A stretch of DNA of 64,000 nt, taken from positions 784 to 64,783 of IMG/VR virus record IMGVR_UViG_3300025102_000021. One strand, 5' to 3'. Numbering within the stretch: position 1 is the stretch's first letter; each line of letters begins with the position of its first letter. Made by a program: the position numbers and the translations under genes. This document shows positions 4,123 through 64,000 of the stretch, piece by piece. This DNA comes from a virus (lineage: Duplodnaviria > Caudoviricetes). The notes below the pieces were generated by a model. It was given only the letters and a program-made list of their open reading frames with translations, was not told the origin of the DNA and did no database searches.

Positions 4123-4126
4123 ACCT

Positions 4127-4318
4127 ATGCCTAGAGCAAAAATGAAAACCTGTTCAATATCAGGTAAGAAATTTAAAGCAAACAATGATAACTTTTATCA
4201 CAGCAGCACATCTGCTGACAGTTTACACCCTTATCACAAATCTTTTGATAACTTCAGAAGAACAACTGGTGCTACTGTAGAACAATGTAGAAATTTAGTT
4301 AACCTAATAAATTCCTAA
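4127..4318 (+). CDS. Hypothetical protein
   Basis: 63-aa ORF within the operon. Confidence 0.65.
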   Translation: MPRAKMKTCSISGKKFKANNDNFYHSSTSADSLHPYHKSFDNFRRTTGATVEQCRNLVNLINS

Positions 4319-4321
4319 ACT

Positions 4322-4630
4322 ATGGCAAGTATTATTAAAACGTCCATCAATCTCAATGAGATACCAAAGGACAAAATCATTAACGGTAAAAAAGGTAAAT
4401 ACTTACCTATATCAATTACTATTAACGATGAACCAGATCAGTTTGGCAATCAAGGTCCAGTGATTGTAGAACAGACAAAAGAAGAGCGTGAAGCTAAAAC
4501 GGCTAAGACATACCTCGGTAATGTTAAGGTTGTATGGACTAACGGCAACAACGTCGACACAGCGCCACGCGATAACATGCAAGCAGCTCCAGCTCCGGCT
4601 CCAGTTGCTGAAGATGATCTGCCGTTCTAG
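4322..4630 (+). CDS. Putative single-stranded DNA-binding protein
   Basis: Beta-rich core, Pro/Ala linker and acidic EDDLPF tail. Lies next to the helicase. Confidence 0.7.
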   Translation: MASIIKTSINLNEIPKDKIINGKKGKYLPISITINDEPDQFGNQGPVIVEQTKEEREAKTAKTYLGNVKVVWTNGNNVDTAPRDNMQAAPAPAPVAEDDLPF

Positions 4631-25100: not shown

Positions 25101-26920
25101 TTTTGAAGCTCTTTGACTTTTGCATTCCAAGCGTTAGCCATGTTTTCGTTAAGATCAGAAGCTACTTCTTTTGTTTTTAGCTTCCAAAGCTCATCTTTTT
25201 TCTTGTTGTACTCTACCTCAAATTCACTAAACTCTATCTCTTGATCAGAGTTAACCTGCTCTATAACAGCGTCAATTTCTTTCTTGAAGTTTTCGTTAAG
25301 CCATTTGTTTGCTTTTTCAGTTATTGCGTCTAACTCTTCTTGAGTTTTTGGCTGTGGACCAAACTCCCCAGACTTTACAAGATCTTCTACTTCTTTGTTT
25401 AGTCTGTTAGATATTTCTTTAGCTTTTTTATCTACTATTTTTTGTGATTTGTTTTTTATTTTAAGCTGAAAATCTAGCAGCTCTGGCTCAAGCTCTTGAT
25501 CAATGCTATTTGTTATAGCTTCTTCGTTTGCTTGTATAAGGTCGGCATATTGTTGTTCATAGTACGTATTAAACTCTGCATAAGCAGGTTCTATATAATT
25601 AGAAAAGTCAGAGTTTAATTTTTCTTGATCGTAAGCTATCTCCTTGTACTCATCAAAAGTTCCTGTAAAAGTACCATCTGCTACTCTTTGTTCGTAAGCT
25701 TCTTTTGTTTTTTGTAACGCTATATCGTTTTTATCATCAACATAATTTAACAGATCTACTGTTGTCATTATATTGGCTTGTACGTCTTCTTCAGTAAGAC
25801 CTAATTCCTTCAGCTCTGCTTTTTGCTCTTCGGTTAAATCCTCTTGAAACTCTAATGATTGTTCGTTTGTGTTACCCTTGTTGTTTAATATATTTTCAGT
25901 AACGTCGCTAGCGCTTTCTTGCTTTTCACTTATTAAACTGTTGCCTAGTAATTTTTTAGCTTTCTCAGACTCTTCATACATGAACATTTTTCGATAGAAC
26001 TCGTCTATTCTAGCTTGCGTTATAGGCTCGTGGTTAGTGACAGATTTTCCATCTACCATTGTCATAACCTGTGGATTTCTTAAGTCCACAAAAGTTCCAT
26101 CGTCCATTCTTTGAACGCCGCTTATGATTGTAGATCCTTTTACCCTTCTAGACTTTTTTCTTCCTTTTTCATCGTAGTAAGTTACATACTTGCTTTCTTG
26201 ATATATAGGCTTAATTTCCGCCATAAAGTCAGCGTACGTTCCGTCGTGATGAAAGTTTTTCTTACCGTACAGATCGTACATTTCTTGAGAAGCGTCAACT
26301 ATAGTTTGCTGATCGTTTTCGTCAAACTCTTCGCCTGTTACTGCTTGGTAGTACTCTTTATAGGCTTGTGTAAATGTTACGTCTTGTAGATCTGTTTTTC
26401 TTGTAGGTAAGACTATTCTAGTCTCTTCTCCGTCTTTGTTAGTTATTATAATGTCATCTTTACCAAAGCCTGGAAACTGAATGCCTCTATCAAACTCGAA
26501 GCTAGAGTCTTCTCCATGGAATTCTTTAAGCTTGTCTCTTAGCTCTTTTTCAGGGCTGTAGTCAGAGGCCATTTCTTCAGGTCTATCTTGTGCAGCTATA
26601 ATAAACTCATCAAAGCTTAATACACGGTCTGCTTGAATCTCAACCTCAGGTAGTACATCGCCAATGGGTTTATCTTCTGTCTTTTGTGAATCCGAAGAAA
26701 TATCTTCCGACTCTGATCCCGTATTCGACGTGTCGCTTGGATCTGTTGTCGTCACGTCTACTTCGTTTCCCTCTGGATGTGTTTCAGGATCTTCAGTTCC
26801 GTCATGCATTTTGAACGGAGCATCTATCTTTAGTTTTGCGTTTGGAAATTTTTTAAGGAAAGCTTGTTCCTTGTCTTCTGGAATGTTATAGACTTTATCG
26901 TCTACTGAATATCTAGGCAT
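16103..26920 (-). CDS. Giant 3605-aa polyvalent (probably virion-ejected) protein: zincin HExxH, sigma-like segment, HAD phosphatase with nested P-loop kinase, C-terminal Cys/His repeats
   Basis: AAHEFMH; FDVVATNGSLFGWL...VSLDKNIGDGATFGDMLVDE; FDFDDTL...LTAR...FVDD interrupted by LLAGNAGAGKT...IDGT. Follows the tail and pilot genes. Confidence 0.85.
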   Translation of the reverse strand: MPRYSVDDKVYNIPEDKEQAFLKKFPNAKLKIDAPFKMHDGTEDPETHPEGNEVDVTTTDPSDTSNTGSESEDISSDSQKTEDKPIGDVLPEVEIQADRVLSFDEFIIAAQDRPEEMASDYSPEKELRDKLKEFHGEDSSFEFDRGIQFPGFGKDDIIITNKDGEETRIVLPTRKTDLQDVTFTQAYKEYYQAVTGEEFDENDQQTIVDASQEMYDLYGKKNFHHDGTYADFMAEIKPIYQESKYVTYYDEKGRKKSRRVKGSTIISGVQRMDDGTFVDLRNPQVMTMVDGKSVTNHEPITQARIDEFYRKMFMYEESEKAKKLLGNSLISEKQESASDVTENILNNKGNTNEQSLEFQEDLTEEQKAELKELGLTEEDVQANIMTTVDLLNYVDDKNDIALQKTKEAYEQRVADGTFTGTFDEYKEIAYDQEKLNSDFSNYIEPAYAEFNTYYEQQYADLIQANEEAITNSIDQELEPELLDFQLKIKNKSQKIVDKKAKEISNRLNKEVEDLVKSGEFGPQPKTQEELDAITEKANKWLNENFKKEIDAVIEQVNSDQEIEFSEFEVEYNKKKDELWKLKTKEVASDLNENMANAWNAKVKELQNEYTQQWNPGTTTIPDSVVASSFTRLSRDGFAQMTTENKNMALSIEWEAVERGLIETGYSADEVQIMKEEYFYKAYEKLAYDADGQKSSAELINSANKAIQQLDKIRKENGSLDSEEQEAYDLALEIIDAPEKMSGLGLRNFYMGLADANLADYIPIVGDVVDLLDKRAIKKITDKPVEERSEGEKLMLKMYVSNAQMQSKASSLSNAYASGFGLSSSIRMMAEFALMYTPAGWASKGVKLGINSINKLGLTYLAKYGDDVLKAYSKSSKGFNLTAKLEKKFPILGSVKNPKLIIDPNGATAKTLQFLAGTTTMTTIGTPRVIGNTYAGMTPEMAISYSEVGDTYVEVINEISEGQSFKEAFAKEYGKEWVQFASERFGAYLPGISKYIKGATGLDALDNIGARMFMGRFMKKFGIKPNDTVAFINKVQERGGWNGMIGEMMEEIIAQPPTNLIDGRPLTEGMDADFYEQTFISTAAIQGMFGALKLGGRAKSFINNKISKPKYQVGKVTYDTAEEAYEAAKKMKENGELTADTKIVIKRDFEAYDQMSELLEGTDIEIETNNAQLEINDRTAANEIEAISMLDPDQVKTVEDNKKKLEEITNKWKNSELNRDSQEYKNDKALFQSLQEQNNEILDPVLAKINERQSAEDLKKGTSLIQKWKDRLKLDNINIVSVPREQARDLAIDGIVENSLNQVSLDRLNTEVQTFINAETGKRMFVDAYTGVEISNKQLLDAGINYEAIVQEAQNNVDDFKTTHGFTTPMRNGRQTIVINKESAINMGRGNVAAHEFMHVLLNKTFANNPETALAVGRALESYLLNIDPKNVRNTDFRRRLEGYRASQGEIVAAEETLTLFSDALANGEIKFNETTFTKIGDIIRRAFSAIGVRVNFDSAEDVFNFVRDYNNTVAKGKNLSAGMRRTMSQGARVSGEIAYGSREYNKLLQELGYMQSAESRMSKEDGDLKSDFDQYTLNEDGTPKYNTQEEFKQSEDYYNAYTQIVDSTSLDGIIKRGMTEFGLKGAALDEFTRKVKEEIGLRYLGKINKKTGERGRGFDVVATNGSLFGWLTGVAGGQGKSIIFRAKGDVMNQYKKDKGGDTVSLDKNIGDGATFGDMLVDEGNNMIQSFEQQNLSHTEAREQAVIPGVFASAFGLNMEAISNAIAESNVTSTGLAYVDAKKAVSDVQKVKNKKGKLVVPTKSSDVVSTGSLFNIMEIVAEKFGVPANRVLANQTLSNNLRINAQNAIKENWKDLRDFALPEGETVSGQSTLVANTGLGVFYNKGERISMKQSGSAVGKEAQTKRTDITKEQFWAEFGINPDGSFMTGTKFDGNIRELIKQAAAITANQGVRMNDIKNGTAETAAVALFGDGRSALAFSKEFRGLSPAKKSLFISEIPQISALINPSLKDVADWKEVRDILVSVFKGEIPASTLGGIAKDIVKMAKYFKPVADSMLDEDGFKWGNYVANNFTEEADNIVKLLNIKIQNKQVKGSDLYDDIDLASDARKTPSDIGKALLNTINPKTGVNYTLAEVARVMAILKPMYAGAAQIGRGKFKVDKNGKLYEVTPDQLMKDGEPRTEFSDQRYQVFDSAADFMNWGVLQIPGMTQEIYDAANTKLIPQDSKYAVEKGSYEDSLAEATEVREVINMALNVVGNNDVRLAMFMISANSQMKAPIRRAANLRYIADSVKNMNPKQLGSLAEYEHMIPANYMAIKIIQEHKKGGIKDINEFYKDYTVAVIPKTMDNVLKAQGLQSLMNAGYQFGVDPSWFRYYNSLTIPFAELETIRDISTGELIGEPYTRVEIDKKIENAKKYTKARNNALSLKKSAEPQGMSTFDFDDTLAFTKSGIRLTMPNPSGKPQPKRKAILLAGNAGAGKTTIVKQLGLRKQGFKYINQDVALDWLTKNSGLPQDMNDFTREQSDKWRSLQGEAAVSAKNKASRLRGQGDGVVIDGTGAVGVQFESMARDFKDAGYDVQIVFVESSLENALERNKNRSERRLTDATVRNSIESAKKNKKAFKEMVTFFPYSAKGFVEINTDNLKQGEALPAEFVKEMDDFTKGYIKDRINAEDFALRGADLLAQGAEYDFSEFNKVVDGTPGPLLQKMKNQIKKYGSDNVYVLTARPAASASPIHQFLKDQGINIPLENITGLGKSEGEAKAQWFVQKYAEGYNDMYFVDDALSNVKAVKRVFDALDVKGKSVQARINFSKEFNDTFNQMLERTKGVGAQKTFSRVEARRRGKNKGRFTFFVPPSAEDFAGLLRYFAGTGAQGDVDVKFFEEALIKPFARADRAMSQQKQAIRDDYKALQKEFPSVKKLLGKLTEGGKYTYDMAVRVYLFDKAGYDIPGLSNSAKINMTNLVRQNQELMAYADALGKISRQEQGYLEPTENWDVENIAFDLQNATSRIGRKQFLAEFLENKDIIFSPDNLNKIEAIYGSNFRSALEDILYRMETGQNRRKGATRFENAWNNWINNSVGAIMFFNARSAVLQTLSTVNFINFEDNNIFKAGKAFANQKQYWSDFSFLFNSDFLRNRRAGLATNVNEAELANAVAGATNKAKAALGYLLKIGFTPTQIADSFAIASGGASFYRNRVNKYLKQGMSQAEAESQAFLDFQEIAEETQQSARPDKISQQQASNLGRIILAFANTPMQYNRLIKKAAGDLINGRGDWRSNVSRIVYYGAVQNFIFAAMQNALFALAFDDDEELTEAQQAAKDRTEDTKHSRILNSMFDSLARGSGIYGAALATLKNAIMKYMEEDAKGWRADYAQVVIEALNVSPPLGSKARKLYSAGRTRKFSRDVMSEMSMLDYDSPAWQAIGNVVEATTNLPMARAIRKIDNIREALNKDNSNTQRMMLFLGWSAWDLNVGTEVIKNEGKENEYVVTLDTKRMNQLKVEQELDAKKAKDRKEQAEKKKQEKKEQEVKENEQKVKENIEKQKKEGEEATCAAISSKGNRCKRKPVKDGFCTVHEKVEQNETGEKKQCKHIKPDGKRCKMKTNSKSGNCYYHD

Positions 26921-46710: not shown

Positions 46711-47272
46711 ATTTAATTGTAATAAAATTAGACATTACTCTATACAGCCTTTTTCCATCTATAACAAACTCATACTCAGAGCTAGGCCTAAAGCCTACTA
46801 AGTCTCCTATGTTTACAGTACCGTCAGAGTATTTAACTACACCTACTAGTGGTTTTTCTTTTTCTGCAGAAAAATCTTTATTGTCTTTTATAGGTTGAAT
46901 AAAACAATATCCTTTAGGCGCTTCCCACTTAGAATCTTTAAACCTCGTCCAGTTTGCATGAGGTTTATACAAGAATATTTGATCTTGATAAACTACATAA
47001 GTTTCTTCGTCGAAATAGTTCTTGCTATTTCTTTCGTTACCGTATTGATCCTCCCATCTTCTAAAAACGTTGTGGTGAACTATAACTGTATCGCCGGGTT
47101 TTATACCCAACGTATCTTGATGAGTAGGTACGCTTATAACTTTAGCCTCTCTGTTGACAAACTGATGATTGAAGTTTTCAGAGTTTACAATTAGCTCTTT
47201 GTCACCTACAGACTTTGTGTTATTGTATCTAGACCCTAACGGTCTTACAACAAAACCGTAAACGCTTTTCAT
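46664..47272 (-). CDS. Tandem GroES-like domain protein
   Basis: AKVISVP...IKPGDTVIV and GVVKY...VNIGDLVGF...EFVIDGKRLY: two GroES-like halves. Confidence 0.6.
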   Translation of the reverse strand: MKSVYGFVVRPLGSRYNNTKSVGDKELIVNSENFNHQFVNREAKVISVPTHQDTLGIKPGDTVIVHHNVFRRWEDQYGNERNSKNYFDEETYVVYQDQIFLYKPHANWTRFKDSKWEAPKGYCFIQPIKDNKDFSAEKEKPLVGVVKYSDGTVNIGDLVGFRPSSEYEFVIDGKRLYRVMSNFITIKYEYQGDEEEYNPSWA

Positions 47273-55699: not shown

Positions 55700-55981
55700 C
55701 TAGTGCGTTTTTCTAGTTTTAAACATGCCTAATTTCTTTACTGGGTTTCTATTTACGCCAGCAACAGGCTTTGGCCCACGGTAAAACATACCACTAGACC
55801 CTTGTTTTGCTTTATTGTTTGGATTAAACTCAGAAGACTCGTTCATTTCACCGGGCTCTCTACCTTGTGCTCTTGCAGCTGTAGCTTTTGGATCAGAACC
55901 AGGGCCACCAGCTAGGTTAGCACACTCTTGTTGTAAGCTTCTACTTTTTCTTTTACCGAATAATTTGTATGGTGATTTCAT
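55700..55981 (-). CDS. Small basic protein (first late gene)
   Basis: MKSPYKLFG. Preceded by GTGATAATA. Confidence 0.65.
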   Translation of the reverse strand: MKSPYKLFGKRKSRSLQQECANLAGGPGSDPKATAARAQGREPGEMNESSEFNPNNKAKQGSSGMFYRGPKPVAGVNRNPVKKLGMFKTRKTH

Positions 55982-56000
55982 AGTTATTGTTTTACCTTTA

Positions 56001-56009
56001 TATTATCAC
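56001..56009 (-). promoter_or_regulatory. Putative late promoter element GTGATAATA
   Basis: The same GTRATAATA occurs on the minus strand in intergenic gaps at 29432-29440, 27008-27016, 16091-16099 and 12867-12875. Confidence 0.55.
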
Positions 56010-56031
56010 GTAAACATAGATAAACGTTAAA

Positions 56032-56085
56032 AGTGTGACAATTGCCCCTTACTCTTACTTTCTTAATAGCCTAGTGTCACAGTTT
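56032..56085. promoter_or_regulatory. TGTGACA-N34-TGTCACA dyad, copy 2 (at the divergence point)
   Basis: AGTGTGACAATTGCCCCT...TAATAGCCTAGTGTCACAGTTT matches 1370-1421. Confidence 0.7.
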
Positions 56086-56226
56086 TGATATTGTAAATAT
56101 AGGAGTATAGTGTAGCCCCTACCTTTCTACCTACCGCCCCCTAATACAAAAGTCAAACCTTTTAGCCAGCCCTACCTCGTCGTTTCCATTTCCGTTTATC
56201 GTTTTGTTTTTGTGTATAGCATTTGT

Positions 56227-56259
56227 ACAAATCAACTACGATACTATATAGATATTATA
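56227..56259 (+). promoter_or_regulatory. Putative early promoter, copy 1
   Basis: ACAAATCAACTACG-N10-GATATTATA. Confidence 0.7.
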
Positions 56260-56302
56260 TATGTAACAAATAACTAATATTAACTTAAATAAATTAAATA
56301 CT

Positions 56303-56536
56303 ATGTCTACATTAAATCTCACTAAAAAGCGTTTCGTAATCTCTAAATCTTTAATCGGTCAAAATGCGATCATTACATTCACTAATAAAAAGAATGAAAC
56401 GTATACTTACGATCACGATGCAGTATACTCTGCTAATCAAGAAAAGTTTGAAACTATGAATTGCTTTCAACAATATGGTAATTACACTAACAGTAATAAC
56501 TTACCAACTTTCGCTAGAGAGTTTCAAGTAAAGTAA
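56303..56536 (+). CDS. Early protein, paralogue of 57779-58012
   Basis: KKRFVISK.LIG...FTNKK...YDHDAVY..NQEKFETM.CFQ.YGNYT is shared. Confidence 0.85.
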   Translation: MSTLNLTKKRFVISKSLIGQNAIITFTNKKNETYTYDHDAVYSANQEKFETMNCFQQYGNYTNSNNLPTFAREFQVK

Positions 56537-56582
56537 TACTGACGAGATCTCAATGATCGAAACTACTTCGGTAGTCTATTAC
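56533..56582 (+). ncRNA. Hammerhead ribozyme, type I (copy 1); predicted cut after GUC at 56576
   Basis: GTAATA-CTGACGA-GATC[TCAAT]GATC-GAAA-CTAC[TTCG]GTAG-TC-TATTAC: full core and three stems. Confidence 0.93.
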
Positions 56583-56593
56583 AATCTAATAAT

Positions 56594-56626
56594 ACAAACC
56601 TAATACGAGGTATATCGGATAATATA
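56594..56626 (+). promoter_or_regulatory. Putative early promoter, copy 2
   Basis: ACAAACCTAATACG-N10-GATAATATA. Confidence 0.78.
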
Positions 56627-56660
56627 ACTGAATATAAACTAATAAATAAATTAAATTACT

Positions 56661-56828
56661 ATGCAAGATTACATTACTCACTACGTTACTGGATTCGAAA
56701 ACTTAAAAACAATACTTGATCAATTGTCATTAGATCCACTAGTTGAGGATTACACCTATGAGATTGAATCACGAGGAGAAACTGATGATGATCACTTCTA
56801 CTTTGTACAGATTCTTACAACAAAGTAA
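56661..56828 (+). CDS. Small acidic early protein (55 aa)
   Basis: Hand-translated MQDYITHYVTGFENL...VQILTTK. A/T-rich leader. The stop lies in hammerhead stem I. Confidence 0.7.
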   Translation: MQDYITHYVTGFENLKTILDQLSLDPLVEDYTYEIESRGETDDDHFYFVQILTTK

Positions 56829-56879
56829 TACTGATGAGATCTTACAGATCGAAACACTCGGGAACGTGTGTCTATTACT
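56824..56879 (+). ncRNA. Hammerhead ribozyme, type I (copy 2); predicted cut after GUC at 56872
   Basis: AGTAATA-CTGATGA-GATC[TTACA]GATC-GAAA-CACTCG[GGAA]CGTGTG-TC-TATTACT. Confidence 0.93.
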
Positions 56880-56897
56880 AAACTAATTAATACTAAT

Positions 56898-56987
56898 ATG
56901 GAAATTATACATGATATTACTATACTAATTACACTTGGAATTATTTTACAATTTATTGAAAAGTGTATTGTTCACTCAGAGAAGTGA
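56898..56987 (+). CDS. Small hydrophobic peptide (29 aa)
   Basis: MEIIHDITILITLGIILQFIEKCIVHSEK. Confidence 0.4.
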   Translation: MEIIHDITILITLGIILQFIEKCIVHSEK

Positions 56988-57040
56988 TGGTATACTACAC
57001 AACAATTATTATTCACTAAACAAACAAACTACTTTTACTT

Positions 57041-57169
57041 ATGTTCAAAAATACACAAAAAGAATACATACAATACTTAGAAACTCAAATGAATTACTTT
57101 AAAAGATTTGATAAAGATATGTATATTCACTACAGAAATAAACTTCGTAAAGTATTGAATACAAAATAA
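57041..57169 (+). CDS. Small early protein (42 aa)
   Basis: MFKNTQKEYIQYLETQMNYF...VLNTK. The stop overlaps promoter copy 3. Confidence 0.5.
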   Translation: MFKNTQKEYIQYLETQMNYFKRFDKDMYIHYRNKLRKVLNTK

Positions 57170-57193
57170 ATACGGAGTCAATCAGATAATATA
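57161..57193 (+). promoter_or_regulatory. Putative early promoter, copy 3
   Basis: ACAAAATAAATACG-N10-GATAATATA. Confidence 0.8.
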
Positions 57194-57275
57194 TATGAAT
57201 TTAAACTTATAATAATATAAATTAAATTCTTTAAATAAAATAAAATTATAAACTTTTAAAATTAAATTATATACT

Positions 57276-57512
57276 ATGTCAAATACTATTAAAAACTCTC
57301 AAATCAAAATCTTAAAAATAAATAATAAAACTTATTTACCATATCAATTACATCAACTTCCAAAGTTCTTTGATAAATATACAACTGACTTCTTTAACTT
57401 AAAAGGTTACTGTTATATAAACTTAGAAGATCACTCTGATAATTTTAATCTTCAAAACTTTAAAAATAGATTAACATTCCATAAAAACTTATCAGGTAGT
57501 TTATCTCGATAA
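57276..57512 (+). CDS. Early hypothetical protein
   Basis: 78-aa ORF. Confidence 0.7.
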   Translation: MSNTIKNSQIKILKINNKTYLPYQLHQLPKFFDKYTTDFFNLKGYCYINLEDHSDNFNLQNFKNRLTFHKNLSGSLSR

Positions 57513-57544
57513 CAAATTAAATACGGACAAGTACAGATAATATA
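57512..57544 (+). promoter_or_regulatory. Putative early promoter, copy 4
   Basis: ACAAATTAAATACG-N10-GATAATATA. Confidence 0.8.
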
Positions 57545-57569
57545 AATGAATCTAATAAATAAAAAGAAT

Positions 57570-57767
57570 ATGTCAAAGAAAATAATTAATAAAGTTGTAG
57601 ATGAAACAGTAGATACAATAATAGATAATATAGATGAAGTACTAGTAGATTATATGTATGAGTATGGAGACTATGAAGAGTCAGACGATGTATTCTTTGA
57701 TAATAAAGAAGAAATGTTTGTCAAGGTAATAATAGAATTAAATAATAGAATTAATAACAATAAATAA
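57570..57767 (+). CDS. Small acidic early protein
   Basis: MSKKIINKVVDE..., D/E rich. Start moved to leave a leader after the promoter. Confidence 0.65.
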   Translation: MSKKIINKVVDETVDTIIDNIDEVLVDYMYEYGDYEESDDVFFDNKEEMFVKVIIELNNRINNNK

Positions 57768-57778
57768 AATTAGAAATT

Positions 57779-58012
57779 ATGTCAAATGTAGTAGAAAAAA
57801 AGAGATTTGTAGTCTCAAAAGGATTAGTAGGTAAAGGAGTAGTAATACAGTTTACGAATAAAAAAGGTGATACGATCAAGTATGATCACGATGGTGTCTA
57901 CGCTCTCAATCAAGAGAAACTAGAAACTATGGAGTGTTTCCAAAAGTATGGTAACTATACTTCATCAAACAATATTCCTTCATGGGCGAAAGGTGCTCAG
58001 ATCGAAGAGTAG
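57779..58012 (+). CDS. Early protein, paralogue of 56303-56536
   Basis: Both are 77 aa and clearly colinear. Confidence 0.85.
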   Translation: MSNVVEKKRFVVSKGLVGKGVVIQFTNKKGDTIKYDHDGVYALNQEKLETMECFQKYGNYTSSNNIPSWAKGAQIEE

Positions 58013-58166
58013 TGTAAATAAGTCGAAAGATCGCTCCACGTGGTGAACAACGTAAATCGTGGTACTACTAAAATAAAGTCCAGTTAGTTTAGTGTTTACT
58101 GGTAAATCAAATATGAACACATAAGTGTAAATGGTTAATGGTGGTTCGACTCCACTCTACACTACT
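58009..58166 (+). ncRNA. tRNA-like structured RNA (acceptor-like stem + T-arm enclosing a pseudoknot)
   Basis: GTAGTGTA (58009-16) pairs with TACACTAC (58158-65). T-arm GGTGG-TTCGACT-CCACT. Inner CCAGT/ACTGG stem whose loop GTGTTT can pair with GAACAC. Confidence 0.55.
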
Positions 58167-58196
58167 AAAATATTAACATTTAAAAAAATAGAAATT

Positions 58197-58454
58197 ATGT
58201 CAAGATTACATAGAGAAATACTAAAAAATCAGTTGTTCAACCACGACTACTCTAATACACCAGTAAATAAAATGATACTTGTCGAGTTAGAATACTCACA
58301 AATAACAGTACAAAGTGAAGGCCCTCAAGGTTTCACTCACTACAAAACTTCAGGTGGTAGTTTAGAAAATCTAATCGAACAAATGAATCAAAGAGTTGAG
58401 AAAAGCCCTGACTATGATTTAATAATAGTAGACAAGTCAGACAAAATTTGGTAG
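58197..58454 (+). CDS. Early hypothetical protein
   Basis: Start MSRLHRE follows the leader AAAAAAATAGAAATT. Confidence 0.7.
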   Translation: MSRLHREILKNQLFNHDYSNTPVNKMILVELEYSQITVQSEGPQGFTHYKTSGGSLENLIEQMNQRVEKSPDYDLIIVDKSDKIW

Positions 58455-58456
58455 AT

Positions 58457-58489
58457 ACGAAATAAAAACGAATAAGTACAGATAATATA
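58457..58489 (+). promoter_or_regulatory. Putative early promoter, copy 5
   Basis: ACGAAATAAAAACG-N10-GATAATATA. Confidence 0.72.
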
Positions 58490-58496
58490 TACGAAT

Positions 58497-58700
58497 ATGA
58501 AAAACAAATACATTAAAAAGATAATAGAACTCGAGGAGTTACTAAAACATCACGACTGGTACTACGCAATGAGTGACGATCACCGTTACTACAGTTCAGG
58601 TCGTAAAAGTTTCGAGAAGATATGGAAACTAATGGACGAATTAAAGAATAATAATTATGGTGTTATGGCGGAAAACCTATATGACACTTATAAAAAATAA
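58497..58700 (+). CDS. Early protein resembling the NAD-ligase N-terminal (Ia) helix pair
   Basis: ELEELLKHHDWYYAMSDD. Confidence 0.6.
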   Translation: MKNKYIKKIIELEELLKHHDWYYAMSDDHRYYSSGRKSFEKIWKLMDELKNNNYGVMAENLYDTYKK

Positions 58701-58704
58701 TAAT

Positions 58705-58911
58705 ATGAAGATAACAATACAACAAACAGGTAAAACTTATATCGCTAAAGACAGCGAAGAAGTAAAAGTAATACATAACCACGACTCTATAATAAAGATC
58801 GCAGGTGAATATTACAAGAACGTAAAAACAAACGAGTGGATCAGTGAAGACGAATACTACGACTCACTCTGTCTAAAATTTGAAGAAGATGAATCAAACA
58901 AATATTACTAA
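58705..58911 (+). CDS. Early hypothetical protein
   Basis: Start MKITIQ is just after the upstream stop. Confidence 0.65.
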   Translation: MKITIQQTGKTYIAKDSEEVKVIHNHDSIIKIAGEYYKNVKTNEWISEDEYYDSLCLKFEEDESNKYY

Positions 58912-58971
58912 TTACGAGGAGTTCGACAAGTGGCTTGAAGAACTAATTGTTAAAAACGGAACAACAGAATT

Positions 58972-59238
58972 ATGAAGAAAATTAAATTAACACTAGCAAC
59001 TGTGCTACTAGGTAGCGCGGTTTTTGCTCAAACACAGTGTACTGCACTTACAAAATCTAATAATCAGTGCAAAAATACTGTAAAACAAGGTGAATTATGT
59101 CACCTACATGACCCAAACTACGTAAAACCGAGTGAAACTGTCACTGTAACCTGCTCTGGAACTACTAAATCTGGAGATCCTTGCAAAAAGAAAACTAAAA
59201 ATGCAAGTGGTTTATGTTACTTACACAAGCAAGACTAA
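58972..59238 (+). CDS. Exported protein with two C-x3-T-K-x4-C...C-x2-H repeats (DUF5763-like)
   Basis: Signal peptide ending VFA-Q. Repeats QCTALTKSNNQCKN...LCHLH and TCSGTTKSGDPCKK...LCYLH. Confidence 0.75.
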   Translation: MKKIKLTLATVLLGSAVFAQTQCTALTKSNNQCKNTVKQGELCHLHDPNYVKPSETVTVTCSGTTKSGDPCKKKTKNASGLCYLHKQD

Positions 59239-59312
59239 TGTTTAGTTGGTGTTGGGTGATCGCTGCGGTTTGGTATTTATCTGTAGCGATATACAGAGAA
59301 GACGCAAATTAA
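59238..59312 (+). CDS. Possible 24-aa membrane peptide
   Basis: TAATG coupling. MFSWCWVIAAVWYLSVAIYREDAN. Confidence 0.35.
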   Translation: MFSWCWVIAAVWYLSVAIYREDAN

Positions 59313-59336
59313 ATACGAATACTAATAGATAATATA
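59304..59336 (+). promoter_or_regulatory. Putative early promoter, copy 6
   Basis: GCAAATTAAATACG-N10-GATAATATA. Confidence 0.78.
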
Positions 59337-59343
59337 ATTGAAT

Positions 59344-59823
59344 ATGAAAATAAACAACTTTATAGCGACAGCAGTAGCAGCTACTCTTGCGCTAACCTCT
59401 TGTGAGAAAACAGACTATGATGTGCAGTTTGACAGAGACGCTCACGTAAAAATTATGAGTGAAAACTATGTTAAAACCACAGCAATATCTAGTTGTACTG
59501 GTCTCGACACTAGTTGGACAGTTGATTTTGGCGTTGCTATGTGTATTAATGTAGCAAACCTGCCTGGTATTGACGACGTTCGCTACGATGAGTATGAGTT
59601 CTACGCTATGCTCGACGGTAGAAAAGTGAAAGGCTTTCAAAACCTAAAAGACCAGATAAGCGACAGAACACAAGGTCTAATCGATGGAAATATTAACGTA
59701 CAACTTTCAGGTCACACTGACCTAGCGGTATACTTATTACACGAAAACATGTACAAAGCTCAGTTCTTTGTAGAAAACGGTGATGGTCAACTGTTCGAGT
59801 TGCAACTAAAAGAATTATACTAA
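59344..59823 (+). CDS. Lipoprotein
   Basis: MKINNFIATAVAATLALTS-C-EKTD lipobox. Confidence 0.8.
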   Translation: MKINNFIATAVAATLALTSCEKTDYDVQFDRDAHVKIMSENYVKTTAISSCTGLDTSWTVDFGVAMCINVANLPGIDDVRYDEYEFYAMLDGRKVKGFQNLKDQISDRTQGLIDGNINVQLSGHTDLAVYLLHENMYKAQFFVENGDGQLFELQLKELY

Positions 59824-60212
59824 TGAAAAAAATAACACTATCAGTTGCGCTACTACTAGGTAGTTATGTGACTAAAGCGCAGACAGAATACATTGATGTA
59901 GCTAAAGTAGGTATGTTAGGTACTTCTACTATGGCTATATACAACGATGACAAGGATTTAGATGACTTACAAGTGTTTAAACTAAACTTGTTTGACAAAA
60001 GTGAAATTTATCACTGGGTAAAATACACTAGTCTGTACAACGACAAGGTTGTAATCACTATGTCAGACGACGAAGGTGACACAAGAGAATTGTGTACGAA
60101 ACATGGTGACGAAGAAACTTTTTGTGAAACTGTTTCATCTTTTTCTACATCATACGAGCTCACTACAGATTCGCATGTATTTCAAGTATGGATTTCAAGA
60201 CCTAAAAAATAA
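59823..60212 (+). CDS. Exported protein
   Basis: Signal peptide MKKITLSVALLLGSYVTKA-Q. Confidence 0.75.
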   Translation: MKKITLSVALLLGSYVTKAQTEYIDVAKVGMLGTSTMAIYNDDKDLDDLQVFKLNLFDKSEIYHWVKYTSLYNDKVVITMSDDEGDTRELCTKHGDEETFCETVSSFSTSYELTTDSHVFQVWISRPKK

Positions 60213-60216
60213 AATT

Positions 60217-60318
60217 ATGAATAGAAAATTTAATCATCAAGATTTAGCTATGATCGGTGGGTTTATAGCTATAGTAACAGCAATAATGTTTAACTTAATA
60301 AACACAGGCACAGTATGA
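60217..60318 (+). CDS. Small membrane protein (33 aa)
   Basis: MNRKFNHQDLAMIGGFIAIVTAIMFNLINTGTV. Confidence 0.6.
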   Translation: MNRKFNHQDLAMIGGFIAIVTAIMFNLINTGTV

Positions 60319-60479
60319 AGAAAAAAACAATAACAGTATTAGATTACTCGAGCGCAAGAGTGTTTCAGTATAGCGTAAAAATTAACGTACACTCTGAAGA
60401 GTTTATACAGTTTAAAGGTCATAGACTTAAAGACGTAGAATGGATGGAACACCAAATAAGTAGTATTATTACAAAATAA
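60315..60479 (+). CDS. Small early protein (54 aa)
   Basis: MKKKTITVLDYSSARVFQY...EWMEHQISSIITK. ATGA coupling. Confidence 0.6.
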   Translation: MKKKTITVLDYSSARVFQYSVKINVHSEEFIQFKGHRLKDVEWMEHQISSIITK

Positions 60480-60503
60480 ATACGATTACTTTCAGATAAT
60501 ATA
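60471..60503 (+). promoter_or_regulatory. Putative early promoter, copy 7
   Basis: ACAAAATAAATACG-N10-GATAATATA. Confidence 0.8.
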
Positions 60504-60538
60504 TATGACAATTGCGTGTTAAATAAAAAATAAAAATT

Positions 60539-60751
60539 ATGAACTATTGTAGATGTGGTGAGCCCGTACACCCAGTAAGACAAAAATACGGGTACAAAAC
60601 GTGTATGCCTTGTAGTGGCGTCGAGCGTGTAGCGTCGGCACCGATCACTAATCATAAAACAGGTAATACAATACAAATAGTATCGCAAGCACAATCAATA
60701 GCGATACACAAGGCTAGTCGCCGTAAAGGTTACGGTACTTGTCTTAGATAA
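60539..60751 (+). CDS. Zinc-finger protein (DksA/TraR C4-like spacing)
   Basis: CRCGEPVHPVRQKYGYKTCMPC. Confidence 0.65.
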   Translation: MNYCRCGEPVHPVRQKYGYKTCMPCSGVERVASAPITNHKTGNTIQIVSQAQSIAIHKASRRKGYGTCLR

Positions 60752-60756
60752 TACTA

Positions 60757-61158
60757 GTCAGGTTTAACAATAAGCGAAGCAGTAGAAGTACTGTGGAAGT
60801 CGAAGTAGTAGCGGCGCTGGACCACGGGTCGCGAGTGTCAATACAAACCCTACTACACCTGACGCCGGTATAAAGTAGGTGGCATCACTGCGTAAAGTTA
60901 CCGCAACCCGGCTCACCGGAAATCGGTTCCTACTTTATAATATACGAGCGTGGCGCGTGAGGTGCGTAGCGGAATGACTGGTAAGTGAGATTATATCAAG
61001 AACTTACTCAAGGTGAGCCGCGTCTTACTCACTTGGCCACCTCGTTTTTAATACGTGTAGAACCAGCGGATTTAATCGGTTCAGGGCTAGGTATGGTAAC
61101 CGCGGCGTAAGCAAAGGTTTACTACTGACGAGTATGAGGTTCGATTCCTCACTAGCTA
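60757..61158 (+). ncRNA. Unidentified ~400-nt structured RNA with long-range pseudoknot and 3' tRNA-like module
   Basis: GC-elevated gap with no sense ORF of 60 aa or more. Helices 60757-63/60857-63, 60805-11/60850-56, 60869-79/60929-39, 60909-17/61012-20. T-arm TGAGG-TTCGATT-CCTCA. Confidence 0.7.
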
Positions 61159-61190
61159 CAAAATAAATACGACACGAGTCGGATAATATA
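61158..61190 (+). promoter_or_regulatory. Putative early promoter, copy 8
   Basis: ACAAAATAAATACG-N10-GATAATATA. Confidence 0.8.
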
Positions 61191-61207
61191 ATTAAATAAA
61201 TAACAAT

Positions 61208-61528
61208 ATGAAAAACACTAATGAAATAGAAAAGCAATTACAGCGTAAAGCTGACAAGTACCTCGAGCAAAAAGCAAAAGAAATGTTTGAAATACACAGA
61301 GAGATAGCTATGTATTTAGGTGGTTCTCTTCCAAGCTATATTGACTACATCACTGACTTTAGTGATTACAGTAAAGATATAACGGCAAACAGAGGTAAGT
61401 ATTTTACGTGTAGCTCTCCTTCATCAATGGAGTTCAAGTTCCAGAAAGATCTAGAGAAAAATTACAAAGAGAAAATTGTAACTAAATACACAAAAGAATT
61501 ATTAACTAAACTAGATATATTTGAATAA
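61208..61528 (+). CDS. Early hypothetical protein
   Basis: 106-aa ORF after the promoter. Confidence 0.75.
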   Translation: MKNTNEIEKQLQRKADKYLEQKAKEMFEIHREIAMYLGGSLPSYIDYITDFSDYSKDITANRGKYFTCSSPSSMEFKFQKDLEKNYKEKIVTKYTKELLTKLDIFE

Positions 61529-61529
61529 T

Positions 61530-62048
61530 ATGGAATACATGTCAACAGAAATAAGATCTGCCCGCGAGGCAATGACTATCTTCAAGATACTAGGTATCAA
61601 AGATATTACAACAGAGCGTCAACGTAAAAACGGCACAACAGTATATGAATTACCAATACAACAAATGTGGCAAACACTTAACCCTAAACCTTTGCGTTTT
61701 GCTACGTATGCCGCAGGTTATGTACGTAATGTAAGTGAGTACAACTCAAGTCCTTATCAAATTAACAAGACTAGAAAAGTATCAACACGAACAAGTGGTT
61801 ATGCTTACGATACAGTTGAGCGTATAATGATACCACACTGGGAAGACAGGCTAATATACTTAGCTAAGTTCATTATCAAGAACTACTACCAAAAACCTAC
61901 GTACGTAATGAATGACTACGTTATGAAGTGTTTACGTGAAGCTTATTACGAGCAGAACAAAACAGGTTTACCATTTCATGAAGAAGGCGATATGCATTCG
62001 CCAGATATTAAAGTAATTATTAACGGACACAGATACAATTTATCATGA
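61530..62048 (+). CDS. Early hypothetical protein
   Basis: ATG start MEYMSTE. IKDITTERQRKNGT...GYVRN. Confidence 0.75.
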   Translation: MEYMSTEIRSAREAMTIFKILGIKDITTERQRKNGTTVYELPIQQMWQTLNPKPLRFATYAAGYVRNVSEYNSSPYQINKTRKVSTRTSGYAYDTVERIMIPHWEDRLIYLAKFIIKNYYQKPTYVMNDYVMKCLREAYYEQNKTGLPFHEEGDMHSPDIKVIINGHRYNLS

Positions 62049-62260
62049 GCGCATTTTACAAAGACACAAGATTTAACGGCAAACTAGTTAGACTAGAAGA
62101 CGTTATAGATGAAATATACGATAGAGCATTAGAAACTATAGACGAGAGCTTGTATGAGCTTCTAAACGACAAAGACGACGATGAGTTCTATGAGGATTAC
62201 AAAGAAGCTTTCCCTCTTATAGTAGAAAAGCTACAAAAGTTTCATGATGGCGAAGATTAA
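62045..62260 (+). CDS. Small acidic protein
   Basis: 71 aa, D/E rich. Confidence 0.7.
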   Translation: MSAFYKDTRFNGKLVRLEDVIDEIYDRALETIDESLYELLNDKDDDEFYEDYKEAFPLIVEKLQKFHDGED

Positions 62261-62384
62261 AATAAAGCTAGACAAAGAAACTTTAAAAGCTATATGGGAT
62301 GCTAGCAAGCCTAACATAGAGCGTAATAAGAAAAAATATACTCGTAAAAGTAAACACAAAACAAATACGAATACTAACGGATAA
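62247..62384 (+). CDS. Small basic protein with ArfA-like tail (45 aa)
   Basis: Hand-translated MAKIKIKLDKETLKAIWDASKPNIERNKKKYTRKSKHKTNTNTNG. Confidence 0.55.
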   Translation: MAKIKIKLDKETLKAIWDASKPNIERNKKKYTRKSKHKTNTNTNG

Positions 62385-62388
62385 TAAT
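62356..62388 (+). promoter_or_regulatory. Putative early promoter, copy 9
   Basis: ACAAAACAAATACG-N10-GATAATAAT. Confidence 0.75.
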
Positions 62389-62411
62389 ATAAACCAATTA
62401 AATAAACCATT

Positions 62412-62783
62412 ATGACTACAACAGAATTACAAGCAAAGATCGAAGCTTTGCAAGCAGCTCTCGAAACCAAAGCGCAAGAGCAAAACGCGTATCGAGGTCA
62501 AATTGATACACTTAAAAAACAACTAGCAGACTTAAACAAACCAAAACTTACAATGAAACAGTTTGACGAGCTAACAACGTTTGTTGAATGCGGTATCGAA
62601 GAGTTTGACTTTGATGATCTTGATAACTACAGTATAGACTACGGTATTGACTATGATAACAGAATAACGTGTGAAAGCTTTTGCTTTGATAACGTTGATG
62701 AGCTTGCTAGAGTAGTATGCGAAAAAGTATACACAATGTTCGGTGAAGCTAACGAAGATACTAACGAAGAAAACCAAGACTAA
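62412..62783 (+). CDS. Coiled-coil/acidic early protein
   Basis: N-terminal heptads and an acidic C-terminal half. Confidence 0.75.
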   Translation: MTTTELQAKIEALQAALETKAQEQNAYRGQIDTLKKQLADLNKPKLTMKQFDELTTFVECGIEEFDFDDLDNYSIDYGIDYDNRITCESFCFDNVDELARVVCEKVYTMFGEANEDTNEENQD

Positions 62784-62784
62784 T

Positions 62785-63021
62785 ATGAAAACACTGTATC
62801 AACAACTAAAACCAGAAGTTAAACAATCACTAAACGAGCAAGAAGAATTATATCCTACGCTAGTTAAAGGTATTAAATGTGCATTGCAAGAAAATTATTT
62901 GTGGTCACACTTATCAATCGGCCAAGCAAGAGATCTTGTAAGTTTTACAAGTATATCTCTTAGCAGCATGTCTAGTTACGACTGGTCGTATGGCGAAAAA
63001 TTTCTTATAGCAGATGAATAG
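62785..63021 (+). CDS. Early hypothetical protein
   Basis: Start MKTLYQQLKPE. Confidence 0.7.
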   Translation: MKTLYQQLKPEVKQSLNEQEELYPTLVKGIKCALQENYLWSHLSIGQARDLVSFTSISLSSMSSYDWSYGEKFLIADE

Positions 63022-63215
63022 TCCATGGGAAGTTATGAGGCCTAAACTCAAGGAGCTTGGGTACTCAGATGAACAAATAGATGATATGACACTAGCAGAA
63101 TTATTCGAACTATGCGAAGATTAATATACGACATGTACTATGCCGACGAGATTACTCAAGACATAGCGGCAAGACTATTAGATAAATTAACAGAACTTTC
63201 AAATAAAAAACGAAG

Positions 63216-63467
63216 ATGACAAAAACAGAATTACCAAAATGGTTTAACGGCACGACCTACGATGAAGGTGCCGAAGTAACTAACCGTTTCGGCGGTGACA
63301 GTTGCTACTTAAATGCAGAAGAATTAAGTATGTATGACTTTGTTATCGGAGCAACAAACATGATTGAGATGGGTTGGTTTCACGACTCACTACTGCGAGA
63401 TCATAGAAGAGGTCTTGACTGGTTTAGAAAGAATAATGCCGAAGCTTACATGATATTACTAGACTAG
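63216..63467 (+). CDS. Early hypothetical protein
   Basis: VTNRFGG...ELSMYDFVIG...GLDWFRKNNAEAYMILLD. Confidence 0.75.
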   Translation: MTKTELPKWFNGTTYDEGAEVTNRFGGDSCYLNAEELSMYDFVIGATNMIEMGWFHDSLLRDHRRGLDWFRKNNAEAYMILLD

Positions 63468-63550
63468 TATGATAGCTATAGCACTGTCAGCAATAGTCTT
63501 TTTGATATTTATAGAGGCTTTAATAGAAAAACATAACAATTATAAATAAT

Positions 63551-63823
63551 ATGGATATAACAGGAGAAAATATAGAAAACTACATTAGGCAAGAGTTAGA
63601 CTCTGAGCCTAGACATAACTGTATGGCGTTAGCAGAAGCTATCAACCATATTGCAGACGAAGTTGATTACGACTCATTTGCACTCATGCAGTTATTACTA
63701 GAAAACAAACCAATAGATGCTTTGCATACACACAGTTATGGCTTTCACACCGCTAACGGTAGATCGCTGATTGAAGGTATGCAGAACACGTATTATGAGG
63801 AGGTACAGTTTTATGTCGACTAG
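63551..63823 (+). CDS. Early hypothetical protein
   Basis: 90-aa ORF. Confidence 0.7.
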   Translation: MDITGENIENYIRQELDSEPRHNCMALAEAINHIADEVDYDSFALMQLLLENKPIDALHTHSYGFHTANGRSLIEGMQNTYYEEVQFYVD

Positions 63824-64000
63824 AGCACAAGTTAGATTTGCTACACGTGAAGAAGGAGTATCGTTTAGCGAGCATCCAAATGCTATACACGCACAGTTTT
63901 ACGCGCATAGTGATGGTTACCCTGAAGCGCTAGGTTTAGAGATAGCAGATTCTCTCTTGTCCAACTATCCATTGAATGGCTGGGAAATAGAATCTCTTGA
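63813..64000 (+). CDS. Early protein with HxDGYP motif (3'-truncated)
   Basis: MSTRAQV...YAHSDGYPEALG, open to the window end. Confidence 0.7.
   Translation, partial: MSTRAQVRFATREEGVSFSEHPNAIHAQFYAHSDGYPEALGLEIADSLLSNYPLNGWEIESL

What the first reader, a model, noticed from the sequence alone, without database searches (positions are those of the whole stretch)
56533..56879. Tandem hammerhead ribozymes bracket a 296-nt ORF-containing unit that could circularise
Seen: two complete type I hammerheads (CUGANGA, GAAA, GUC, three stems). Each begins at the stop codon of an early gene (AAGTAA-TA-CTGA). Stems I and II are identical, while stem III differs in sequence yet still pairs, which argues for selection on structure. 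Established: hammerhead cleavage leaves 5'-OH and 2',3'-cyclic phosphate ends. Inference: double cleavage releases 56577-56872, containing the 55-aa ORF. Because both share GTAATA/TATTAC, the ends of that fragment re-form a whole hammerhead, as in retrozyme/viroid-like circles. The simpler alternative is linear processing of the earliest mRNAs into monocistronic, 5'-OH-protected units.
Basis: partly seen in the sequence, partly recalled or inferred. Interest (0 to 1): 0.9.

Follow-up and report, generated by a model that had tools for sequence, protein, structure and literature searches.

The report
Hammerhead ribozymes punctuating phage early genes
Two genuine self-cutting hammerhead RNAs sit at the ends of the first two early genes of a Flavobacteria-type phage and most likely chop the early transcript into single-gene messages, a known kind of arrangement, while the proposed RNA circle has no support.

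Summary
Two complete type I hammerheads lie at 56533-56582 and 56825-56878 (+), each starting on the stop codon of a small early gene. The predicted cuts fall after 56576 and 56872, giving a 296-nt unit. Rfam scores them below threshold, but a covariance model built only from other viral contigs finds both (60.2 and 48.8 bits).

The phage is a ~65-kb relative of Flavobacterium/Cellulophaga podoviruses. Related contigs carry same-strand arrays of the same ribozyme, wedged between a stop codon and the next ATG about 25 nt after the cut.

Among 14 metagenome loci that carry the 55-aa gene and can be judged on both sides:
- 1 has both ribozymes;
- 5 have only the upstream one;
- 2 have only the downstream one;
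- 6 have none.

At the same gene junctions the ribozyme alternates with a phage-specific promoter-like element, and one copy of that element lies inside the 296-nt unit.

Best reading: modular cutting of transcripts into short-leader, single-gene mRNAs, as Perreault et al. proposed in 2011. The circle is chemically possible. However, the bracket is not conserved, the unit is not viroid-like in fold, and no RNA data could test it.

This scan has noted tandem phage hammerheads before on other DNA.

The parts
56227..56259 (+). Copy 1 of a 33-bp promoter-like element (ACAAA..A.TACG, 10-nt spacer, GATAWTATA), 43 nt before the ATG of ORF1
   Evidence: Nine copies aligned. A strict pattern gave 5 hits against 0.00 expected. 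Seven copies were found by a looser pattern. Promoter function is inferred, not shown.
56303..56536 (+). ORF1, 77 aa, first gene of the rightward (early-type) block; its TAA stop lies in stem I of HH1
   Evidence: It has a paralogue at 57779-58012 (60% identity) and a homologue (71%) in locus L041 that is also followed by a hammerhead. No Pfam or PHROG family matched.
56533..56582 (+). HH1, type I hammerhead; predicted cut after C56576
   Evidence: In a related contig of run X1 the only three changes inside HH1 fall at N7, loop II and loop III.
56594..56626 (+). Copy 2 of the promoter-like element, inside the 296-nt unit, between the HH1 cut and the ORF2 ATG
   Evidence: Alignment A6 shows relatives with this element but no HH1 (L154, L163), and others with HH1 but no element (L164, L166, L167).
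56661..56828 (+). ORF2, 55 aa, a conserved protein-coding gene; its TAA stop lies in stem I of HH2
   Evidence: Five homologue clusters at 76-87% identity, 55-56 aa long. Eighteen metagenome loci encode relatives. No family matched.
56825..56878 (+). HH2, type I hammerhead; predicted cut after C56872
   Evidence: Near-identical copies sit at the same junction in L153, L154, L155 and L163.
56898..56987 (+). ORF3, 29 aa, hydrophobic; its ATG lies 25 nt after the HH2 cut
   Evidence: A homologous start (MEIIHD...) follows ORF2 without any hammerhead in L156.

Best explanation
HH1 and HH2 are active type I hammerhead ribozymes that serve as modular joints between small early genes of a Flavobacteriia podovirus.

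Proposed mechanism:
- RNA made from the promoter-like element upstream of ORF1 reads through, since no intrinsic terminator was found.
- Each ribozyme folds as soon as it is transcribed and cuts itself 41 nt after the upstream stop codon.
- The upstream message keeps its stop codon and ends in the compact ribozyme body with a 2',3'-cyclic phosphate.
- The downstream message starts with a 5'-OH and a short, A/U-rich, unstructured leader: 25 nt before ORF3 and 84 nt before ORF2.

The net effect is to uncouple neighbouring genes into separate mRNAs, insulating each from its context and setting its own stability and translation. This is the same job that a promoter-like element does at other junctions.

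Shown here: the ribozyme sequence and fold, their conservation, the junction geometry, and the swapping of modules among relatives.

Inferred: cleavage in vivo, the promoter function of the repeated element, and the benefit to the phage.
For: 1. Both elements meet every core and helix criterion of the class and are found by a model built without them.

2. The helices covary.
- In 21 hammerheads from other viral contigs, 9 of 15 pairs change on both sides and 100% of cells pair. These sequences were pre-selected for pairing.
- In 13 hammerheads (9 distinct) reached through homology to the 55-aa protein, 7 of 15 pairs change on both sides and 97.8% of cells pair, against 12.7-43.8% when the partners are slid.

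3. Same-strand arrays occur in relatives that share a terminase at 64-65% identity (G002-G005), and in many other contigs.

4. Geometry, from 102 distinct hammerhead contexts.
- In 60 of 102, an ATG-ORF of at least 40 codons stops within -3..+10 of the ribozyme start, against 77 of 2040 control positions.
- In 76 of 102, the next ATG (ORF of at least 25 codons) lies 15-40 nt after the cut, against 360 of 2040 controls.

5. Modularity at the two junctions of the 55-aa gene in close relatives.
- Upstream junction: hammerhead plus promoter-like element in the window, L153, L156 and L169; hammerhead only in L164-L168; element only in L154, L155, L158 and L163; neither in 6 loci.
- Downstream junction: hammerhead in the window, L153, L154, L155 and L163; element in L164-L167, plus the promoter-like half in L157, L159 and L160; neither in 4 loci.

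6. No terminator-like site was found in 55900-58500.

7. The 6-bp stem I is flanked by conserved adenines: A at -1 in 50 of 55 and A at +1 in 48 of 55, against a background of 0.30. Loop II is mostly UNAAU-like. Together these hint at a tertiary contact.

8. Perreault et al. 2011 showed that comparable tandem prophage hammerheads cleave in vitro in ~2-kb polycistronic constructs, and proposed processing into single-gene mRNAs (PMC3088659, passages read).
Against: - No RNA evidence at all. The only two runs holding any of the stretch had a 0.06 word share, were contigs, and showed no ends or joints.
- Rfam's own threshold is not met.
- In a 90-nt context the minimum-energy fold of HH1 is an alternative structure that uses the ORF1 coding sequence.
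- The isolated ribozymes are not more stable than shuffles (z = -0.8 and -0.6).
- Hammerheads are present or absent among very close relatives, so they are dispensable.
- If the element at 56594 is a promoter, ORF2 already has its own 5' end. HH1 is then redundant for that purpose and acts only on read-through RNA.
- The benefit (stability, translation or insulation) is untested. A published review (2019) still calls the purpose of such bacterial and phage ribozymes undefined (PMC6765202, passages read).
Confidence: 0.72

Rival explanations
1. Circle model. Double cleavage of read-through RNA frees the 296-nt unit. The unit is then ligated, either by the reverse hammerhead reaction or by a host RtcB-type ligase, into a circular RNA carrying the 55-aa ORF. 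This circle would be a selected product.
For: - The ends of the unit share stem I and can rebuild a full hammerhead, 6 of 6 pairs.
- In the closest group all hammerheads share GUAAUA/UAUUAC.
- Cleavage chemistry gives ligatable ends (established knowledge).
- RtcB rang in the Bacteroides control genome, so hosts of this phylum can have it.
- Tandem ribozyme pairs 186-399 nt apart are linked to small circles in retrozymes and have been proposed for totiviruses (PMC13725137, passages read).
Against: - The bracket is not conserved. Of 14 related loci that can be judged on both sides, 1 has both hammerheads, 5 only the upstream one, 2 only the downstream one and 6 none.
- The one locus with both (L153) has a unit of 431 nt, not 296.
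- In 50 distinct neighbouring pairs only 13 have 6-of-6 compatible ends, and several have 1-4 of 6.
- There is no excess structure (z = 0.03).
- 296 is not a multiple of three and the ORF has a stop codon, so it cannot be an endless ORF.
- A promoter-like element lies inside the unit, so part of the ORF2 RNA would carry a 5' triphosphate.
- No phage ligase of families PF09414 or PF01139 was found. The PF09511 search was uninformative because its control was silent.
- Perreault et al. looked for circles or spliced products from such clusters and report finding none, as data not shown.
Confidence: 0.07
2. Selfish or neutral module. The stop-codon/hammerhead/leader cassette spreads and is lost between gene junctions by recombination. 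It is kept as a ribozyme for its own propagation or by recent copying, with no benefit to the phage.
For: - Presence is patchy among near-identical relatives.
- L154 shows an exact absence of the HH1 body between short repeated words.
- Stem I and the leader are identical at different junctions.
- The C-terminus of ORF2 reads ...TTK only where HH2 is present, as if the module brought its own last codon and stop.
Against: - Stems II and III have diverged by compensatory changes while the core stays intact. This means long-term selection on the fold.
- The placement is highly ordered, at the stop codon and about 25 nt before the next ATG, always on the coding strand.
- No mobility gene or mechanism is associated with it.
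- It alternates with a promoter-like element rather than occurring at random sites.
Confidence: 0.13
3. Non-cleaving structural element. The hammerhead-shaped fold acts without cutting, for example as an RNA polymerase pause or stop signal or as a protective hairpin cluster, and self-cleavage is slow or irrelevant at cellular Mg2+.
For: - No canonical loop-loop or pseudoknot contact could be assigned.
- Stem I is short and A/U-rich.
- HH1 has a competing fold in its sequence context.
- No terminators are seen in the region.
Against: Every catalytic-core position is kept in all copies examined, although a mere hairpin cluster would not need them. The conserved adenines that flank stem I suggest a tertiary contact.
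Confidence: 0.06

Closest known systems
Clustered hammerhead ribozymes flanking single genes in prophages and phages (Perreault et al. 2011, PLoS Comput Biol, PMC3088659)
   Same: - Several same-strand hammerheads lie close together and flank individual small genes in a phage genome.
- Processing of a long transcript into single-gene mRNAs is the proposed role.
- Circles or splicing were considered there too and not detected (passages read).
   Different: - The host clade differs: relatives of Flavobacterium/Cellulophaga podoviruses. No paper in the library holds 'hammerhead' together with 'Flavobacterium phage' or 'Cellulophaga'.
- All copies are type I with a fixed 6-bp stem I.
- The stop codon lies inside stem I, and the leader before the next ATG is about 25 nt.
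- At orthologous junctions the ribozyme alternates with a phage-specific promoter-like element.
Type I hammerhead family, Rfam RF00163 (clan CL00010)
   Same: The core, the three helices and the open stem I all match, and both copies align to the model over its full length.
   Different: The scores of 23.6 and 20.0 bits are below the gathering score of 34. The Rfam gathering scan gives 0 hits in the window and 0 in 18 related loci that hold 13 such ribozymes. Standard annotation therefore misses this subfamily.
Retrozymes and viroid-like circular RNAs with hammerheads (reviewed in PMC7761336; tandem pairs in totiviruses, PMC13725137)
   Same: Two same-polarity hammerheads lie a few hundred nt apart, and the ends of the unit can rebuild a ribozyme.
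   Different: - The unit is DNA-phage encoded.
- It is an ordinary coding sequence with its own stop codon.
- It has no rod-like fold.
- The bracket is not conserved among relatives.
- No circular RNA has been observed.
Synthetic ribozyme insulators such as RiboJ (recalled from my own knowledge; only search listings were seen)
   Same: A hammerhead placed between a promoter or upstream context and a coding sequence cuts off the upstream RNA, so that the gene is expressed from a defined short leader.
   Different: RiboJ is an engineered part derived from a satellite-RNA ribozyme. Here the elements are natural, sit behind stop codons, and also cap the upstream message.

Membership tests
Hammerhead ribozyme, type I | Catalytic core C3 U4 G5 A6 N7 G8 A9, G12 A13 A14, A15.1-U16.1, and H17 not G | tested here: met
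   Both copies carry CUGA(C/U)GA, GAAA and U-C at the cut site.
Hammerhead ribozyme, type I | Three helices around the core with standard pairs next to it; stems II and III capped, stem I open | tested here: met
   Stem I has 6 bp. Stem II has 4 bp in HH1 and 5 in HH2. Stem III has 5 bp in HH1, and 6 bp plus one U.U mismatch in HH2. Each sequence alone gives the junction as its minimum-energy fold.
Hammerhead ribozyme, type I | Helices supported by covariation in homologues | tested here: met
   9 of 15 pairs carry double changes, on sequences pre-selected for pairing; 7 of 15 pairs, on sequences reached through protein homology and then aligned to the model. Slid controls pair in only 12.7-43.8% of cells.
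Hammerhead ribozyme, type I | Score at or above the Rfam gathering threshold (RF00163, 34 bits) | tested here: not met
   The scores are 23.6 and 20.0 bits, with 0 hits at gathering level. A dedicated model gives 60.2 and 48.8 bits.
Hammerhead ribozyme, type I | Tertiary contact between stem I and loop II for fast cleavage at low Mg2+ | tested here: inconclusive
   No pseudoknot was found by eye. Conserved adenines flank the 6-bp stem I (50 of 55 at -1 and 48 of 55 at +1) and loop II is UNAAU-like. HH2 has U at +1.
Hammerhead ribozyme, type I | Self-cleavage at the predicted phosphodiester bond | not testable with these tools
   This needs an in vitro transcription assay or mapping of RNA ends.
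Clustered phage/prophage hammerheads (Perreault 2011) | Two or more hammerheads on the coding strand flanking single genes or short gene blocks in a phage genome | tested here: met
   The window, the phage identity and arrays in relatives.
Retrozyme / viroid-like circular RNA | Unit ends that rebuild a complete ribozyme | tested here: met
   6 of 6 pairs form between the 5' strand of HH2 and the 3' strand of HH1.
Retrozyme / viroid-like circular RNA | Compact, highly self-paired unit | tested here: not met
   The 296-nt unit folds at -42.7 kcal/mol against a shuffle mean of -42.83 (z = 0.03).
Retrozyme / viroid-like circular RNA | Two-ribozyme bracket kept in relatives | tested here: not met
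   1 of 14 loci that can be judged has both ribozymes. Four of the 18 loci were left out: L155 has only 115 nt upstream, and in L168-L170 the ORF is cut by the locus end.
Retrozyme / viroid-like circular RNA | Circular RNA molecules detected | not testable with these tools
   Only two runs held any of the stretch, with a 0.06 word share. Both were kept as contigs and showed no joints.

The most novel reading that the evidence does not exclude
A fraction of the read-through early RNA is cut at both hammerheads and closed, by the ribozyme's own reverse reaction or by a host RtcB-type ligase. The product would be a 296-nt circular mRNA that encodes the 55-aa early protein and is immune to exonucleases. 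This would be a DNA-phage-encoded, translatable ribozyme circle.
Probability: 0.06. Interest if true: 0.85.

Novelty: new member of a known kind. Interest (0 to 1): 0.42.

Why it matters
The purpose of the many hammerheads in bacterial and phage DNA is still called undefined in the 2019 review (PMC6765202).

This phage group offers a natural experiment. At the same gene junctions, very close relatives carry a hammerhead, a phage-specific promoter-like element, both, or neither. This suggests that the ribozyme's job is to give a gene its own transcript end.

There is also a cultured relative with one such ribozyme, Flavobacterium phage vB_FspP_elemoC_14-1A. Its ribozyme is hidden under a probably spurious 35-aa gene call, so the idea can be tested at the bench.

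In practical terms, Rfam thresholds miss this whole subfamily, so phage annotation pipelines will overlook it or call false ORFs across it.

Tried and rejected
1. RNA evidence. The look-up of sequencing runs gave only two runs with a 0.06 word share. Laying them showed short pieces of related contigs, with no joints and no pile-ups of ends, so neither cleavage nor circles could be tested. One 1370-nt contig of a relative spans HH1. Its kind is a guess ('RNA?') and it may be DNA.

2. The third hit of model R1, at 47156-47203 (17.6 bits), has no GAAA and no stem II. I treat it as chance.

3. An Rfam E-value scan of 55900-64000 lost both hammerheads to the filters and listed only a sub-threshold tRNA-like hit. 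No other ribozyme class appeared there, and none appeared in the 18 related loci at gathering level.

4. An exact-pattern scan of viral contigs for the window's own stem I plus core gave 0 loci. A protein-guided scan of viral contigs with ORF2 gave none either.

5. The sigma-70 promoter scan is uninformative: 18 sites found against 17.1 expected. It does not cover Bacteroidota or phage polymerases.

- Pfam gives only AAA_33 and Zeta_toxin.
- The PDB sequence search gives only an adenylate kinase at E = 0.0022.
- NCBIfam gives only weak generic P-loop kinases.
- There is therefore no specific support, and I did not use the idea.

7. RNA ligase families PF09414 and PF01139 are absent from the phage. 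The PF09511 search is uninformative because nothing rang in its controls.

8. Of the cultured relatives searched with R1, 1 of 5 records has a hit (NC_062743.1). None was found in MW202828.1, phi46:3, phi38:1 or Gundel_1.

9. RAGATH-1 hammerhead (RF03152) matches at 22.1 and 21.3 bits against a gathering score of 56.3. I rejected it.

10. Supplementary files of the papers were not consulted. The alignments in Perreault's Dataset S1 may already include members of this subfamily.

Full report
**What is there.** The sequence at 56533-56582 and at 56825-56878 on the + strand contains two complete type I hammerheads.
- Both have stem I GUAAUA/UAUUAC, a core CUGA(C/U)GA, stem II GAUC/GAUC, GAAA, a capped stem III, and U-C before the cut.
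- Stem III differs between them. HH1 has 5 pairs with a UUCG loop. HH2 has 6 pairs plus one U.U mismatch, with a GGAA loop. Both still pair.
- The cuts fall after C56576 and C56872, 296 nt apart.
- The TAA stops of ORF1 (56303-56536, 77 aa) and ORF2 (56661-56828, 55 aa) lie inside the 5' strand of stem I.

**Is it more than chance?**
- The core pattern occurs twice in the window against 0.06 expected.
- Rfam gives no hit at gathering level. On a 601-nt slice it aligns RF00163 over its full length at 23.6 and 20.0 bits, below the cut-off of 34. On an 8.1-kb slice the filters lose both.
- I scanned viral contigs for the core with the same stem II. A script kept 43 matches, 27 of them distinct, that have a paired stem I and stem III.
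- I aligned 21 of these without the window's copies and built model R1. R1 finds the two window elements at 60.2 and 48.8 bits, plus one weak hit that is chance.
- Covariation is strong: 9 of 15 pairs carry double changes and 7 of 15. There are caveats. The first set was pre-selected for pairing, and the second was aligned to the model.

**Whose genome.** The window is nearly all of a 64,783-bp viral record.
- It has a portal, a terminase, a 3605-aa giant protein and a protein with a crAss muzzle-type domain.
- The terminase is 63% identical to that of an uncultured podovirus. It is 45% identical to Flavobacterium Elemovirus phages and 37-39% to Cellulophaga phages.
- The hammerheads lie just right of the point where leftward structural genes and rightward small genes diverge. 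'Early' is thus a reasonable inference, but it is not shown.

**Relatives.**
- Five complete viral records all hold same-strand arrays of 2-4 hammerheads. Four of them have 64-65% terminase identity to the window.
- Other contigs hold up to 8 (L034).
- Across 102 distinct contexts the ribozyme is wedged between genes. In 60 of 102, an ORF of at least 40 codons stops within -3..+10 of its start, against 77 of 2040 controls. In 76 of 102, the next ATG lies 15-40 nt after the cut, against 360 of 2040 controls.
- Type I topology suits this position. The upstream mRNA keeps its stop codon and gains a folded 3' end, while the downstream mRNA sheds almost the whole ribozyme.
- The 6-bp stem I is flanked by conserved adenines, which may make the tertiary contact needed for fast cleavage. 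That is inference.

**The closest relatives decide the interpretation.** ORF2 is a real gene, with five homologue clusters at 76-87% identity. It found nothing in viral contigs and 18 loci in metagenome contigs.

All hammerheads in these loci share the window's stem I. Fourteen loci can be judged on both sides of ORF2:
- 1 (L153) has both hammerheads, and its unit is 431 nt;
- 5 have only the upstream one;
- 2 have only the downstream one;
- 6 have none next to the gene.

Four loci were left out: L155 has too little upstream sequence, and in L168-L170 the ORF is cut by the locus end. 'None' rests on R1 and on my own finder, which see only canonical type I forms. Rfam at gathering level found nothing else.

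Alignments A6 and A7 show the ribozyme as a clean module. L154 lacks exactly the HH1 body. L156 goes from ORF2 to ORF3 with the same leader but no HH2.

**A second module.**
- I confirmed the repeat.
- Copy 2 (56594-56626) lies inside the 296-nt unit, between the HH1 cut and the ORF2 start.
- In the relatives, the two junctions of ORF2 carry a hammerhead, this element, both, or neither.
- The simplest reading is that both modules give the downstream gene its own RNA 5' end. Promoter function is not shown.

**The circle.** It is chemically possible, since the unit ends pair 6 of 6. Several points count against it as a selected product:
- The bracket is not conserved.
- Only 13 of 50 neighbouring pairs elsewhere have fully compatible ends.
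- The unit has no excess fold (z = 0.03).
- The ORF ends in a stop codon and 296 is not a multiple of three.
- A putative start site lies inside the unit.
- No ligase gene was found.
- RNA data could not be brought to bear.

**What is known.**
- Perreault et al. 2011 described multiple hammerheads flanking single genes in prophages and showed cleavage of three such clusters in vitro. They proposed processing into single-gene mRNAs, and they mention looking for circular or spliced products without finding them (PMC3088659, passages read).
- Later papers state that type I hammerheads occur in DNA phages and that the function remains open (PMC6765202, PMC7761336 and PMC13725137, passages read).
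- No paper in the library pairs 'hammerhead' with 'Flavobacterium phage' or 'Cellulophaga'.
- The finding is therefore a new member of a known kind. Its useful extra is the swapping of ribozyme and promoter-like modules at orthologous junctions.
- Other agents of this scan reported tandem phage hammerheads on other DNA and reached similar conclusions. I did not check those.

**Verdict.** Linear punctuation of early transcripts is the best explanation (0.72). Interest is moderate (0.42).

Noticed in passing
window 56227-62388 (copies at 56227, 56594, 57161, 57512, 58457, 59304, 60471, 61158, 62356): There are nine + strand copies of a 33-bp element (ACAAA..AAATACG, a 10-nt variable spacer, GATAATATA), each ahead of a small ORF. 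It matches neither the sigma-70 consensus nor the Bacteroidota consensus as I recall it. In several copies the ATG follows within 1-8 nt, which would give leaderless or very short-leader mRNAs if the element is a promoter.
   Followed up: partly
window 57779-58166: A paralogue of ORF1 (57779-58012, 60% identity) is followed not by a hammerhead but by a tRNA-like element. Rfam tRNA scores 21.7 bits at 58086-58164, below the cut-off of 29. ARAGORN calls nothing. The fold z-score is -1.9. It could be another kind of processing signal at the same position.
   Followed up: partly
L126 about 880-950 (record G002): By eye, a type III hammerhead sits directly before the first small ORF of the relative's array. 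It is preceded by about 250 nt of G+C-richer, apparently non-coding sequence. Model R1 (type I) does not see it.
   Followed up: no
L142 2438-2545 (NC_062743.1 16937-17044): The annotated 35-aa gene gp68 of Flavobacterium phage vB_FspP_elemoC_14-1A lies on the strand opposite to all its neighbours, exactly over a 43.6-bit type I hammerhead. It is probably a false gene call. An unannotated 22-codon ORF ends 2 nt before the ribozyme.
   Followed up: partly
loci L010, L015, L016, L022, L030, L033, L040 and others: A different, frequent hammerhead-like class in viral contigs has the same core and stem II. Its 3' partner of stem I runs into a GGAGG ribosome-binding site just before an ATG, and it has no obvious stem III.
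   Followed up: no
window 16103-26920 (-), residues about 2460-2603: The 3605-aa giant protein holds a generic P-loop kinase domain (AAA_33 at E = 2.7e-10). No specific link to RNA end-healing enzymes was found.
   Followed up: partly
record G002 (73,787 bp): There are two terminase-like matches in one record, at 3834-6056 (64% identity) and 66841-69072 (56% identity). This may be a chimeric or doubled assembly.
   Followed up: no
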